Translations under genes and position numbers: made by a program
IMG/VR virus record: IMGVR_UViG_2537562173_000012
Source of the DNA: a virus
Taxonomy: Duplodnaviria; Heunggongvirae; Uroviricota; Caudoviricetes
Length of the DNA stretch: 12,009 nt
Strand: one strand, 5' to 3'
Notes under the pieces: model-generated
Database searches by the model: none
What the model saw: only the letters and a program-made list of their open reading frames with translations
What the model was told of the DNA's origin: nothing
Shown: positions 1,832 to 6,371 of the stretch, piece by piece
How positions within the stretch are numbered: position 1 is the stretch's first letter
Layout of the letters: each line of letters starts with the position of its first letter

Positions 1832-2658
1832 GCAATCCCCCTGTCTGCAAACTTCCCTTCCCGAACTCCCGTTAACGAGTCTTCTCTCAGCAGGTAATCA
1901 AAATCAGCCGTCCAGCCCGTGTCGTTGTCTCCGAAGTAAAACGGCTTGGCCTGATGCACAAACGCCCTGACATACGCTCTGAAACCGTCCACATTTGGCG
2001 TTTTCAGTTGTGGGATGATTTTCTTCAGGCGGCGTTTGCGCTTCTCGTTGACCGCAACAGCGTGTGGCAGTCTGTCACCGACTTCGGTGTTGTAGGCGTT
2101 CAGGAAGGATTCATAGTCGATTCGTTCTGCCTTGCGACGTTCAGGTTTAACCTGCCCATCGCCGCCCCCGTTAGGGGGTAAGGGGGTATTTGTATTTATT
2201 GTCTTTTGTATATTGTCTTTTGTGTTTGACTGATTCGGTAAATTGCTTTTTACCGATTTGGTGAAGGTTTGTTTTACCGAATTGGTAAATGTTTTACCGA
2301 ATCCGTTAACTTTCGTTTTCCACTCGGAAATGTTTGTATTCATACCAACTTGACGCCCCACCTGAATGAGAACTCCCATTCTGATAAGCTCGTTTTTGGC
2401 GGTAGAGCATTTGGTTGGTGCCATGCCAGTGAGTTCAGCGAACTGTTCGTTTCCGATCCAATCTATTTTTTTGTTGTAACCGTATGTCTTGCGCCACACA
2501 GCCATAACAATCAGTAACTGATGTGCAGTAAGCCCAGAAAGCATGGCGGCTTCTAACAGTGTGTTTGCAGTCCGAGTGTAGCCATCTTCGAGTTCTGCCA
2601 CGCGATGCTCCACGACCTCCAGTTGAGGCCTGTAATCAGCTAACTTAACGACGCCCAT
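1828..2658 (-). CDS. Replication initiator, lambda O / P22 gp18-like
   Basis: 276-aa ORF with AGGAG SD 6 nt before the ATG at 2656-2658. N-terminal region resembles lambda O (DGYTR..N.LLEA motif). The central linker is encoded by the iteron repeats, and a repeat-encoded [15 protein letters not shown] is visible in the protein. Confidence 0.85.
2173..2300. repeat. Origin of replication: iterons embedded in the O-like gene
   Basis: Tandem AGGGGGTA x2 (2173-2188), TATTGTCTTTTGT x2 (about 2197-2223), and three TTTTACCGA copies (2248-2256, 2272-2280, 2292-2300) interleaved with inverted TCGGTAAA / TTGGTAAA copies. This is the classic lambdoid ori arrangement inside the initiator gene. Confidence 0.7.
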
Positions 2659-3571: not shown

Positions 3572-4288
<717 letters not shown>

Positions 4289-4295
4289 CACGTAA

Positions 4296-4733
4296 ATGAT
4301 TAAAGAACGTATTTCTTATATCATTCCGATTGCGATGGATGAAGGCAACCCAGTAACTCCAGTTCTTATCTATGAAATGGATAAAGACTCCCATGAAGTG
4401 GATCTATCATTTGGCGCTTTTTTTATCGGCCTTAAGGCTACAAAAAAATATTCCATAGGCATTGAGGTTTTCAATGCTCAAGAAATACCGATACCAATTG
4501 ACACAAAACTGTACTCCAACCATAAGTTTTTTACGGTAGCAGAAGCCAACGATGGAGAAACCATCGTATCAACTTCTATGAGAATTAACTTCCCAAGGGT
4601 GAAAATTATCAAGCCTGGGATATTCGAAGTTAGAGCATCACTGGTTAATCCTGATAAAGGCGAAGTAATTGATGTAAAAAGTTCGTTTTTTGACGTGAAG
4701 ATAACAGGATCAGTTCGCGATGAGTTTAGATAA
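4296..4733 (+). CDS. Hypothetical protein, first gene of a cassette in the rexA/rexB position
   Basis: 145-aa ORF starting 8 nt after the cI stop on the same strand, with no obvious SD (possible coupling to cI). It does not resemble RexA, no catalytic motif was recognised, and the stretch looks more A+T-rich than its neighbours by eye. Confidence 0.6.
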   Translation: MIKERISYIIPIAMDEGNPVTPVLIYEMDKDSHEVDLSFGAFFIGLKATKKYSIGIEVFNAQEIPIPIDTKLYSNHKFFTVAEANDGETIVSTSMRINFPRVKIIKPGIFEVRASLVNPDKGEVIDVKSSFFDVKITGSVRDEFR

Positions 4734-4839
4734 CAAGGTTGCTCAGCTTCGTCCAAATCAAAACATATCTCGCCCAATTGGACACTATTCCACTGATGAT
4801 GCATACTCACGGCATGGTGGAGGAAACGGCGGAGGTAAC

Positions 4840-5091
4840 ATGCTTGAGGCTAGAGTTGCAAAGCTAGAGTCTGATGTTGAATACATCAAGCGCGATCTCG
4901 CTGAAGTAAAGTCAGATATAAAATCTGTAGATTCTCGTCTGTCAGGTATTGAGACAAGCATTAGCTCAGCAAAAATCACCATCAAGGCATCTGCGGTCGT
5001 TGTCAGTTTCGTGTTCGCATTTTGCGCCTACATTTTTGGAAGTTATGTTTCCAAAATCCTTGATGCCTTAAACGGACTCGTTCTTAAGTAA
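4840..5091 (+). CDS. Hypothetical small membrane protein (coiled-coil plus C-terminal TM helix), second gene of the cassette
   Basis: GGAGG SD at 4831-4835 before the ATG at 4840 gives an 83-aa product. The same frame is open from ATG 4720, giving the 123-aa form in the ORF track. Heptad-like LEARVAKLESDVEYIKRDLAEVKSDIKSV is followed by a hydrophobic stretch AVVVSFVFAFCAYIFGSYV. A terminator follows directly. Confidence 0.55.
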   Translation: MLEARVAKLESDVEYIKRDLAEVKSDIKSVDSRLSGIETSISSAKITIKASAVVVSFVFAFCAYIFGSYVSKILDALNGLVLK

Positions 5092-5098
5092 CACACAA

Positions 5099-5124
5099 CC
5101 CGGCCTCAGCGCCGGGTTTTCTTT
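5099..5124 (+). terminator. Intrinsic terminator ending the cI-cassette transcript
   Basis: CCCGGC (5099-5104) pairs with GCCGGG (5111-5116) around a 6-nt loop, followed by TTTTCTTT. Confidence 0.7.
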
Positions 5125-5281
5125 ACCTCACGATCCCCTTCACCCAATAACACATAACCAATTGTATTTATTTGAAAATTAATAGATACAACTCACTAAA
5201 CATCGCAATTCAGATCTCTCGATCACCTCCCAAGCCACACACCCCTGCAAAAAAATAAATCTATATAAAAAACATACAGAT

Positions 5282-5344
5282 AACCATCTGCGGTGATAAA
5301 TTATCTCTGGCGGTGTTGACATAAATACCACTGGCGGTGATACT
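5282..5344 (+). promoter_or_regulatory. OL3-OL2-OL1 operators and the PL promoter
   Basis: OL3 at 5282-5298, OL2 at 5302-5318 and OL1 at 5326-5342 match the lambda operator consensus. PL -35 TTGACA (5316-5321) and -10 GATACT (5339-5344) are 17 bp apart. Confidence 0.9.
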
Positions 5345-5412
5345 AAACACATCAGCAGGACGCACTACTCACCAGTGCGGTGAATATACAACGATTCAAG
5401 CAAGAATCTACG

Positions 5413-5427
5413 GCGCTGACAAAGCGC
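5413..5427 (+). promoter_or_regulatory. nutL boxB hairpin (GACAA loop, P22 type)
   Basis: GCGCT GACAA AGCGC is a perfect 5-bp stem with a 5-nt loop, about 70 nt downstream of PL. It matches the P22-type boxB I recall and differs from the lambda GAAGA/GAAAA loop. Confidence 0.6.
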
Positions 5428-5592
5428 AATAACCAAAGTGAACTTTGGGGTGTGGTGAAGGATTCATGGACGGGAATATGTCGCACGTAAAGCGGCGAGG
5501 CCTGCGGGACTATTGCCGAATTGAAGTAGGCCGAAACAGGTCGAAATGGGTCTCCCACCTACCACACCACCAAAGTTCATCAGGAGGTCTAT

Positions 5593-5976
5593 ATGACACG
5601 CAGAACTCAGTTCAAAGGCAATTCACGTTCTCGTCGTCGTGAGCGTTTAAAGGCAAAGGCATTAGCTAACGGCGTACTGGCCCGCGAAGAAGCAATAAGT
5701 TCAGAAGTATTACACCGCCCTACTCTAAGCAGAGCGCAGATTCAGGCTAAAGGTACTCACGAAACGCCTGAGCGCATAGAAGACGCTAAGCCAATTAAGT
5801 TCATAGCACAGGACGTGATCTGGCAACAGAAAGAATACAGACGCAATCTGGAGCGAGCGGCCATTGTGTACGCGAATGAGTTTGGACATAAGCAACCAGA
5901 AACTGGTGTATGTCTTCCAAACGTAGCCATTTACGCGGCAGGCTACCGGAAATCAAAACAACTGACGGCGAGGTAA
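5593..5976 (+). CDS. N: N-like transcription antitermination protein (P22 gp24-like arginine-rich motif)
   Basis: 127-aa ORF with AGGAGG SD 5 nt before the ATG. N-terminal arginine-rich motif NSRSRRRERLKAKALA. First gene downstream of PL and nutL. C-terminus VAIYAAGYRKSKQLTAR resembles what I recall of P22 N. Confidence 0.8.
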   Translation: MTRRTQFKGNSRSRRRERLKAKALANGVLAREEAISSEVLHRPTLSRAQIQAKGTHETPERIEDAKPIKFIAQDVIWQQKEYRRNLERAAIVYANEFGHKQPETGVCLPNVAIYAAGYRKSKQLTAR

Positions 5977-5978
5977 TT

Positions 5979-6371
5979 ATGGGTCAGGAAGAAAAATATG
6001 AGCTTAAAAAGCTCATTGGAGAAGACGCCATAGAAGAAATTGCAGCATTAACAACAGCTATAAAGAATATTAGGTATGCGCTAAATACGCTTATCTCCTC
6101 ATGCGACAAAAATAGCAGGGAATTTTTGATACTTGGCGCAGCTCTAGGAATAGTTGATGCGGCAACGCTTCACCTAATTACTCATGACGATATTCTTATT
6201 GAGCCGTATGAAACATTACTGCTTGTCAGGCAAAAAATGGCTGATGCCGCAGCAAATGGAGACCTTCAACTTTACATCGACTTAAGGAAAGTATTAAGGC
6301 GAATGGTCAGAACTGAAGGAGATATCCCCCTGAACGATGCTAAACAAGGCATACAAGCAAAGCTGGAATGA
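5979..6371 (+). CDS. Hypothetical protein (accessory gene downstream of N)
   Basis: 131-aa ORF from the ATG at 5979, 2 nt after the N stop, with a GAGGT SD. The ORF track shows an upstream TTG-initiated extension that I consider unlikely. Confidence 0.6.
   Translation: MGQEEKYELKKLIGEDAIEEIAALTTAIKNIRYALNTLISSCDKNSREFLILGAALGIVDAATLHLITHDDILIEPYETLLLVRQKMADAAANGDLQLYIDLRKVLRRMVRTEGDIPLNDAKQGIQAKLE

What the first reader, a model, noticed from the sequence alone, without database searches (positions are those of the whole stretch)
5437..5592. Long-range RNA duplex in the N leader ending just before the N ribosome-binding site
Positions 5440-5457 (GAACUUUGGGGUGUGGUG) are complementary to 5561-5578 (ACCACACCACCAAAGUUC) with a single bulged A, about 100 nt apart, and the 3' arm ends 3 nt before the AGGAGG SD of N. 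Lambda has an analogous RNase III-sensitive leader structure that tunes N translation. Conservation of this structure in a diverged sequence suggests it is functionally constrained. The ORF-track entry 5445-5642 lies inside this leader and is probably not a gene.
Basis: partly seen in the sequence, partly recalled or inferred. Interest (0 to 1): 0.45.

Follow-up and report, generated by a model that had tools for sequence, protein, structure and literature searches.

The report
RNase III-type stem in N leader
The reported long-range RNA helix is real and is this phage's copy of the phage lambda leader helix that RNase III cuts to tune production of the N antiterminator; across related phages the helix is kept while the roughly 100 bases it encloses are swapped like cassettes.

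Summary
Observation confirmed. Bases 5438-5457 pair with 5560-5580: 19-20 bp with one bulged A (5569). The helix ends 1-3 nt before the N Shine-Dalgarno sequence, and its pair probabilities are about 1.0. It is longer than any helix in 300 shuffles.

The window is a lambdoid early-left region: PL, then nutL, then N of the H-19B/933W/HK97 type. The lower 12-13 bp of both arms are almost identical to the arms of the lambda N-leader stem. The element is therefore homologous to lambda's known RNase III-sensitive structure, not merely analogous. P22, phi80 and phages with other N types have it too.

Across 66 distinct arm pairs, 92.8% of cells pair and 12 of 18 pairs show compensatory changes. About two dozen unrelated interiors sit between the conserved arms. 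Two of them are tRNA-like in relatives.

The ORFs inside the structure are not conserved.

Most likely function: as in lambda, RNase III cleavage separates nutL from the N ribosome-binding site and opens that site. The layout mirrors the boxC leader-trailer helix of rRNA operons. Cleavage itself was not testable here.

Verdict: a new member of a known kind. The cassette exchange is the unexpected part.

The parts
5316..5344 (+). PL promoter (TTGACA, 17 nt, GATACT). The transcript start is inferred at about A5351 by identity with lambda's ATCAGCAGGACGCAC.
   Evidence: 10 of 12 matches; alignment with lambda L001. The start site is inferred, not shown.
5393..5408 (+). nutL spacer hairpin GAUUC-AAGCAA-GAAUC
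   Evidence: Predicted. The stem is kept and the loop varies in relatives. H-19B nutR is described as having two hairpins (PMC3526286).
5413..5427 (+). nutL boxB hairpin GCGCUGACAAAGCGC, the presumed N-binding site
   Evidence: Hairpin. It is identical to the hairpin at the annotated nutL of P22. The assignment as boxB rests on my knowledge of P22 boxB.
5438..5457 (+). 5' arm of the long-range helix. It contains the boxC-like GGUGUGG.
   Evidence: covariation. rrn boxC is UCUGUGUGGG (PMC10250234).
5458..5559 (+). Enclosed cassette 'B': a conserved multi-branched RNA. It has hairpins at 5462-5477 and 5481-5498, a helix 5499-5504/5537-5542 with compensatory changes, and a hairpin at 5547-5557.
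   Evidence: Alignment A2 and consensus fold. The same cassette is found in phi80, PA2 and 683R2 with other nutL/N types.
5560..5580 (+). 3' arm of the long-range helix, with bulged A5569 followed by CCAAAG
5582..5587 (+). Shine-Dalgarno sequence AGGAGG of N
   Evidence: It lies 5 nt upstream of the ATG at 5593.
5593..5976 (+). N antiterminator gene (127 aa, H-19B/933W/HK97 type)
   Evidence: ORF; PF25694 N_peptide, E=2.8e-15; annotated as N in HK97, 933W and mEp234.

Best explanation
The helix is this phage's version of the lambda N-leader RNase III site. The early leftward transcript starts at PL. It makes nutL first, and about 10 nt later the 5' arm, which carries the boxC-like GGUGUGG. A structured cassette of about 100 nt follows, then the 3' arm, then the N ribosome-binding site 1-3 nt downstream. 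When the 3' arm emerges it pairs with the 5' arm into about two turns of dsRNA. By homology with lambda, three steps are inferred. (i) The intact helix next to the SD, together with the N/Nus complex bound at nutL, keeps N translation low. (ii) Host RNase III cuts the helix. This cuts nutL off the N message and frees the ribosome landing site, so N synthesis rises with cellular RNase III activity. (iii) Because nutL is held on the modified polymerase, the 5' arm is probably delivered to the 3' arm co-transcriptionally, as proposed for boxC in rRNA operons. Shown here: the helix, its position, its homology to lambda, its covariation, and its RNA-strand specificity. Inferred: cleavage by RNase III, the effect on translation, and the delivery step.
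For: - Position: the helix lies between boxB and the N SD.
- Stability: pair probabilities are about 1.0, and the helix is 20 bp against at most 16 bp in shuffles.
- Homology: the arm sequences are nearly identical to lambda's at the same position. P22 has the same design between its annotated nutL and gene 24.
- Folding in relatives: 170 of 177 distinct leaders close the same helix in their MFE.
- Covariation: in 66 distinct arm pairs, 92.8% of cells pair against about 40% in slid controls. 12 of 18 pairs change on both sides, and 0 of 500 shuffles reach the observed score.
- Strand: there are 63 G-U cells against 9 A-C cells, which points to RNA on the sense strand.
- Unbiased retrieval: loci found through the N protein rather than the stem (Enterobacter, and Lonsdalea with a P22-like N) also have it.
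- Accessibility: predicted unpaired probability of the -20..+13 region rises from 0.28 to 0.52-0.62 once the 5' arm is removed or the 3' arm is cut.
- Literature: lambda N is translationally autoregulated through NutL, and the intervening leader is 'highly structured' (PMC5725501, citing Wilson 1997 and 2002). The lambda N leader is cited as an RNase III target (Steege 1987). For rrn, boxC lies in the RNase III leader-trailer helix and is modelled as being delivered by the antitermination complex.
Against: - There are no cleavage or expression data for this phage or for any phage with this N type, and none turned up in ten literature searches.
- RNase III has little sequence specificity, so it does not explain why the lower stem is nearly invariant in sequence (UUUGG ... 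purine-CCAAA) across N families.
- In phi80 the helix ends about 40 nt from the N start codon, and in PA2 no N gene follows it. Occlusion of the ribosome site therefore cannot be the universal role.
- The enclosed cassette is far more conserved than a spacer needs to be (96% mean column identity). That suggests a further function not covered by this model.
Confidence: 0.75

Rival explanations
1. The helix is mainly a processing frame that releases the enclosed cassette as a stable, separately functional small RNA. The cuts would be made by RNase III and perhaps also RNase P. The effect on N would be secondary.
For: - About two dozen unrelated, well-folded cassettes occupy the same frame, and 8 families occur with more than one N type.
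- Two cassette families reach Rfam's tRNA gathering score: L061 at 39.6 bits and L171 at 34.8 bits. ARAGORN also calls both.
- Cassette B is 96% conserved, loops included, across phages whose flanks are unrelated.
- The bulge is always a purine and, in nearly all cases, is followed by CCA, which resembles the RCCA motif of RNase P substrates.
- phi80, which carries cassette B, is known to induce a small RNA (M3) that RNase P cuts from a precursor.
Against: - The window's cassette matches no Rfam family and no tRNA model.
- The CCA was part of my search anchors, so its conservation is partly imposed.
- In the tRNA-like cassettes the acceptor stem is out of register with the bulge-plus-CCA, by +2 in L061 and -1 in L171.
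- I could not obtain the sequence or map position of M3 RNA.
- L055 has the helix with no cassette at all.
Confidence: 0.2
2. The helix is a purely structural translational attenuator or insulator next to the N ribosome-binding site and is not cleaved by any nuclease.
For: The 3' arm ends 1-3 nt from the SD, and predicted accessibility of the landing site is low while the helix is intact.
Against: The arms are homologous to those of the lambda structure that is cited as an RNase III target. The helix is not adjacent to the SD in phi80 and is not followed by N in PA2.
Confidence: 0.1
3. The inverted repeat acts at the DNA level, as conserved joints at which recombination swaps cassettes, and the RNA pairing is a by-product.
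For: Mosaic boundaries fall exactly at the arms. Similarity to phi80, PA2 and 683R2 covers only 5443-5575. Cassettes reassort with N types.
Against: The upper stem varies in sequence while pairing is kept through compensatory changes, so it is not a fixed recombination sequence. G-U pairs outnumber A-C by 63 to 9, which is expected for RNA on this strand but not for DNA. The conserved arms may well also promote exchange, so this explanation can be true alongside the main one.
Confidence: 0.07
4. The region encodes a small protein: ORF 5445-5642 on the + strand, or ORF 5352-5558 on the - strand.
For: Both ORFs are open in the window.
Against: Neither has a Pfam match. The + ORF carries stop codons in phi80, PA2, L021, L045 and L085 and is frameshifted in L009. 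The - ORF carries stops in L015 and L033 and is frameshifted in L009. Neither exists in phages with other cassettes. The + ORF starts with TTG, has no SD, and overlaps the N start out of frame.
Confidence: 0.01

Closest known systems
Phage lambda N-leader RNase III site, the stem between nutL and the N ribosome-binding site (Steege et al. 1987; Kameyama et al. 1991; Wilson et al. 1997, 2002)
   Same: It has the same position in the PL transcript. The lower-stem sequence is nearly the same (CUUUGGGGUGUG / CACACCACCAAAG), with the same bulged A, and the interior has a similar length (about 100 nt).
   Different: The interior is unrelated (cassette B rather than lambda's cassette). nutL and N are of the H-19B/P22 type, not the lambda type. 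The base of the stem has G-C replaced by A-U. Cleavage and regulation are untested for this version.
Leader-trailer helix of rRNA operons, with boxC in its 5' strand, cut by RNase III
   Same: The order of elements is the same: a nut-like element, then a boxC-like 5' strand (GUGUGG), then a looped-out structured RNA, then a complementary 3' strand. In both, the 5'-strand sequence is strongly conserved and pairing is supported by covariation.
   Different: The enclosed RNA is about 100 nt and interchangeable, not 16S rRNA. The helix is about 20 bp rather than 25-40 bp. It sits in an mRNA leader directly upstream of a ribosome-binding site.
phi80-induced M3 RNA and other hairpin-like RNase P substrates
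   Same: phi80 carries the same cassette B inside the same helix (L002 879-1008). The helix has a purine-CCA on its 3' strand and usually a G at the first upper-stem position.
   Different: I could not retrieve the sequence or location of M3 RNA, so identity is a lead from memory plus citations, not a result. Here the CCA is base-paired.
tRNA (Rfam RF00005)
   Same: Relatives carry tRNA-like cassettes in the same frame (L061, L171). Cassette B has a cloverleaf-like branch order.
   Different: The window's cassette gives no tRNA hit with Rfam or ARAGORN and has no T-loop.

Membership tests
Lambda-type N-leader RNase III stem | Lies in the PL transcript between nutL boxB and the N ribosome-binding site | tested here: met
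   PL at 5316-5344, boxB at 5413-5427, helix at 5438-5580, SD at 5582-5587, N at 5593-5976.
Lambda-type N-leader RNase III stem | Long-range dsRNA of about two helical turns enclosing a structured interior | tested here: met
   19-20 bp with one bulge, plus 3 stacked bp beyond a 2-nt internal loop. Pair probabilities about 1.0.
Lambda-type N-leader RNase III stem | Sequence homology of the arms to lambda's | tested here: met
   Lambda has GGCTTTGGGGTGTGTG / CACACACCACCAAAGC; the window has GAACTTTGGGGTGTGGTG / ACCACACCACCAAAGTTC.
Lambda-type N-leader RNase III stem | Pairing maintained by compensatory change in relatives | tested here: met
   12 of 18 pairs change on both sides, 92.8% of cells pair, and 0 of 500 shuffles reach the observed score.
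Lambda-type N-leader RNase III stem | Cleaved by host RNase III | not testable with these tools
   Needs end mapping in rnc+ and rnc- hosts.
Lambda-type N-leader RNase III stem | Cleavage raises N translation and relieves NutL-dependent autorepression | not testable with these tools
   There is only a thermodynamic hint: landing-site accessibility goes from 0.28 to 0.52-0.62.
rrn leader-trailer helix (boxC) | boxC-like sequence in the 5' strand, just downstream of the nut-like element | tested here: met
   GGUGUGG at 5449-5455, starting 22 nt after the end of boxB (5427); the 5' arm itself starts 10 nt after boxB. rrn boxC is UCUGUGUGGG. This is a resemblance, not membership.
rrn leader-trailer helix (boxC) | Encloses a ribosomal RNA | tested here: not met
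   The interior is a 102-nt cassette with no Rfam match.
tRNA / tRNA-like element (window cassette) | Match to the tRNA covariance model or an ARAGORN call | tested here: not met
   No hit in the window or for cassette B even with relaxed ARAGORN settings. Met only in relatives L061 and L171.
RNase P substrate (phi80 M3 RNA type) | Identity with the M3 RNA sequence; RNase P-dependent 5' end | not testable with these tools
   The M3 sequence is not in the held literature.
Intrinsic terminator | GC-rich hairpin followed by a U run | tested here: not met
   No terminator-like site at 5438-5592. The 3' arm is followed by AUCAGGAGG.
Protein-coding gene (ORF 5445-5642 + or ORF 5352-5558 -) | Reading frame conserved in relatives; family match | tested here: not met
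   Stops and frameshifts in relatives; no Pfam hit.

The most novel reading that the evidence does not exclude
The conserved stem (boxC-like 5' strand, purine-CCAAA 3' strand) is a universal lambdoid 'processing frame' that works like a miniature rRNA leader-trailer helix. The N/Nus-modified polymerase delivers the 5' strand to the 3' strand. RNase III, possibly followed by RNase P and 3' trimming, then excises the enclosed RNA. The enclosed cassettes would be interchangeable, independently functional small RNAs. They are tRNA-like in some phages, and in phi80 the cassette may be the long-orphaned M3 RNA. Under this reading, the window's cassette B (5458-5559) is an abundant early phage sRNA of unknown function, present in about 9% of complete E. 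coli genomes.
Probability: 0.25. Interest if true: 0.75.

Novelty: new member of a known kind. Interest (0 to 1): 0.4.

Why it matters
N sets the pace of early gene expression, and so the lysis-lysogeny outcome, in lambdoid phages. That group includes the Shiga-toxin phages 933W and H-19B, which carry this exact leader. If the lambda RNase III circuit holds here, toxin-phage development is tied to host growth state through this helix. The wider finding offers a function for the poorly understood boxC of nut sites. A fixed helix frames about two dozen swappable structured RNAs, some of them tRNA-like. This links phage antitermination to the rRNA processing design and points to an unexplored class of early phage small RNAs.

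Tried and rejected
- Rfam found nothing in the window, either at gathering thresholds or with permissive E-values on 5340-5600.
- ARAGORN found no tRNA in the window or in the first ten loci.
- The ungapped inverted-repeat tool splits the helix at the bulge, so it understates the helix and is not a useful chance test.
- An RNAduplex test on half-sequences was uninformative, because it allows large interior loops and picks other interactions. I replaced it with a helix-length shuffle test.
- The primary lambda papers and related sources could not be read: Wilson 1997 and 2002, Bubunenko 2013, Bothwell 1976. The phrase 'N-leader' with 'RNase III' returned nothing.
- The Pas sRNA preprint and the phage L genome paper turned out to be unrelated to the N leader.
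- I rejected reading the bulged A plus CCA as a tRNA discriminator and CCA end in strict register. In L061 the acceptor stem starts 2 bp higher, and in L171 it starts 1 position lower.
- I rejected the coding ORF and terminator readings.

Full report
**What is in the sequence.** The window's + strand carries a lambdoid early-left region.
- A 237-aa cI-like ORF lies at 3575-4288, followed by two small ORFs and a terminator-like hairpin at 5097-5118.
- Next come lambda-like OL operators and a PL promoter, TTGACA-17-GATACT, at 5316-5344.
- The leader begins with the lambda-identical ATCAGCAGGACGCAC, so the transcript start is inferred at about 5351.
- A 127-aa ORF at 5593-5976 matches Pfam N_peptide (57 bits). 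It is annotated as N in HK97, mEp234 and 933W, which are 97-99% identical over 5280-5980.
- The leader holds a hairpin at 5393-5408 and a boxB-type hairpin GCGCUGACAAAGCGC at 5413-5427. The latter is the same hairpin as at the annotated nutL of P22.

**The observation.**
- Folding extends the helix by two pairs at the base, to 5438-5457 / 5560-5580. It then ends 1 nt before AGGAGG (5582-5587).
- The helix appears in both the MFE and the centroid structures of two different excerpts, with z-scores of -4.25 and -4.04.
- In the full leader its pairs have ensemble probabilities of 0.86-1.0. The joined arms alone fold at -31 kcal/mol.
- A helix of 20 bp with at most one bulge was never reached in 300 dinucleotide shuffles of the leader, which gave 11.0 +/- 1.4 and a maximum of 16.

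**Relation to lambda.** Between nutL and N, lambda has GGCTTTGGGGTGTGTG ... CACACACCACCAAAGC. This is the same lower stem and the same bulged A as in the window, but the interior is unrelated. The window's element is therefore homologous to the lambda N-leader stem, not merely analogous.
- I could not read the primary lambda papers.
- The literature I could read says that N and the Nus factors bound at NutL repress N translation. It also says that the roughly 200-nt sequence between NutL and the SD is 'highly structured', citing Wilson et al. [quoted passage not shown] N' (PMC5725501).
- The N leader is also listed among lambda's RNase III targets, citing Steege et al. 1987.
- From my own knowledge of Kameyama et al. 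1991: RNase III cleavage of this stem raises N synthesis.

**Comparative test.**
- BLAST showed that similarity to phi80, PA2-type Stx phages and 683R2 is confined to 5443-5575, that is, arm to arm, while their nutL and N differ.
- Salmonella P22-like phages with the same N type keep the arms but have other interiors.
- I collected leaders from viral contigs with two scans anchored on the 3' flank plus SD, one for each of two N types.
- Of 177 distinct leaders, 170 close the same helix in their MFE.
- I cut the arms out in fixed register and aligned 66 distinct arm pairs (A1). 92.8% of cells form standard pairs, against 38-43% when the partner is slid by 1-3 columns. 12 of 18 pairs show changes on both sides. 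Examples are GUGUGGUG/CACCACAC, GUGAAUGCAG/CUGUAUUCAC, AUGCGAUG/CAUCGCAU, AUUGGAUG/CAUCCAAU and AAAGCG/CGCUUU. None of 500 shuffles reached the observed covariation.
- G-U cells outnumber A-C cells by 63 to 9, so the constraint acts on RNA of the transcribed strand.
- My anchors fixed the CCAAAG end of the 3' arm, so I also fetched loci through the N protein instead. Enterobacter and an unnamed Enterobacteriaceae genome have the helix. So do two Lonsdalea genomes with a P22-like N, and two contigs with other N types. A Brenneria locus lacks it.
- P22 itself has it between its annotated nutL and gene 24.

**The ORFs.** ORF 5445-5642 (TTG start, no SD, out of frame with N) and the antisense ORF 5352-5558 have no Pfam match. 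Both are broken by stop codons or by a 10-nt deletion in close relatives. They do not exist in phages with other interiors. They are not genes.

**What the helix encloses.** This was the unexpected part.
- Between the conserved arms there are about two dozen unrelated interiors of 40-235 nt, each predicted to fold into its own compact multi-helix structure. Eight of these families occur with more than one N type.
- One leader (L055) has the helix with essentially no interior.
- Two families reach Rfam's tRNA gathering score. L061 scores 39.6 bits, with its anticodon arm replaced by 70 nt. L171 scores 34.8 bits. ARAGORN also calls both. Two further families have D- and T-arm-like hairpins.
- The window's cassette 'B' matches nothing in Rfam and no tRNA model.
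- Cassette B is nevertheless highly conserved: 96% mean column identity over 21 distinct variants, including phi80. Its loops are invariant, and one internal helix (window 5499-5504/5537-5542) has compensatory changes. That is more constraint than a spacer needs.
- The leader occurs in 505 of 5426 complete E. coli genomes.

**Mechanism.** The best-supported reading is the lambda one. The helix forms once the 3' arm is transcribed and sits against the N ribosome-binding site. RNase III cuts it, which detaches nutL (and with it N/Nus-mediated repression) from the N message and opens the landing site.
- Predicted accessibility of -20..+13 rises from 0.28 to 0.52-0.62 when the helix is removed. 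This is a hint, not proof.
- The layout also matches rRNA operons. There, boxC (UCUGUGUGGG) lies in the 5' strand of the RNase III leader-trailer helix, just downstream of the nut-like element. It is thought to be held at the polymerase exit by the antitermination complex until the trailer emerges.
- The window's 5' arm starts 10 nt after boxB and contains GGUGUGG. Lambda nut sites are described as boxA, boxB and boxC. From my own knowledge, lambda boxC is GGUGUGUG, which is the 5' arm. Co-transcriptional delivery of the arm is therefore a reasonable inference, but it is untested.

**What this model does not explain.**
- The lower stem is nearly invariant in sequence (UUUGG ... purine-CCAAA) across N families.
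- The cassette is strongly conserved.
- In phi80 the helix is about 40 nt from the N start, and in PA2 no N follows it.

These points keep a second reading alive: the helix may be a frame for releasing the cassette as an RNA with its own function. phi80, which carries cassette B, is known to induce a small 'M3' RNA that RNase P cuts from a precursor. I could not obtain the M3 sequence, so this link is only a lead. In addition, the bulge plus CCA is not in tRNA register in the two tRNA-like cassettes.

**Verdict.** The element is a new member of a known kind, the lambda-type N-leader RNase III stem, in a phage with a different nutL, N and interior. The helix itself is of modest interest to a specialist. 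The cassette exchange, the tRNA-like cassettes in relatives, and the parallel with rrn boxC raise it somewhat.

Noticed in passing
L061 1552-1678 (-); L171 370-450 (-); also L099, L112, L134, L223: In relatives, the RNA enclosed by the same N-leader helix is tRNA-like. L061 scores 39.6 bits on Rfam tRNA, with the anticodon arm replaced by 70 nt. L171 scores 34.8 bits, and ARAGORN calls it tRNA-Pro(agg). L134 and L223 have D- and T-arm-like hairpins.
   Followed up: partly
window 5458-5559; L002 (phi80) 879-1008: phi80 carries the window's cassette B inside the same helix. phi80 is known to induce a small M3 RNA that RNase P processes.
   Followed up: partly
L003 (phage PA2) 1310-1930: PA2-type Stx phages have a phi80-like boxA, then cassette B in its helix, but no N gene after it. 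What follows is a promoter-like TTGACT-17-TATATT, a terminator-like GACGCGCCAGCGUC plus a U run, more structured RNA, and a 215-aa ORF of unknown function.
   Followed up: no
L055, about 200 nt upstream of its N start: One H-19B-type leader has a small ORF with its own SD between nutL and a minimal version of the helix (UUUUUGGUGGUGG / CCACCACCAAAG) that encloses no cassette.
   Followed up: no
L009 (phage phi315), within cassette B: A 10-nt deletion between direct repeats AGG(C/U)C shortens cassette B, yet the covarying internal helix can still form. This frameshifts both ORFs that overlap the cassette.
   Followed up: partly
window 4296-5091: Two ORFs (145 and 123 aa) lie between cI and the terminator at 5097-5118, in the position of lambda rexA/rexB. 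Their sizes do not match rexA/rexB. They were not characterised.
   Followed up: no
window 2226-2309: Repeated TTTACCGAAT-type units in inverted and direct orientation lie inside the 276-aa minus-strand ORF 1828-2658. They look like origin iterons within an O-type replication gene.
   Followed up: no
window 5910-6371: A 153-aa ORF overlaps the 3' end of N (its start at 5910 is inside N). It has no Pfam match.
   Followed up: no
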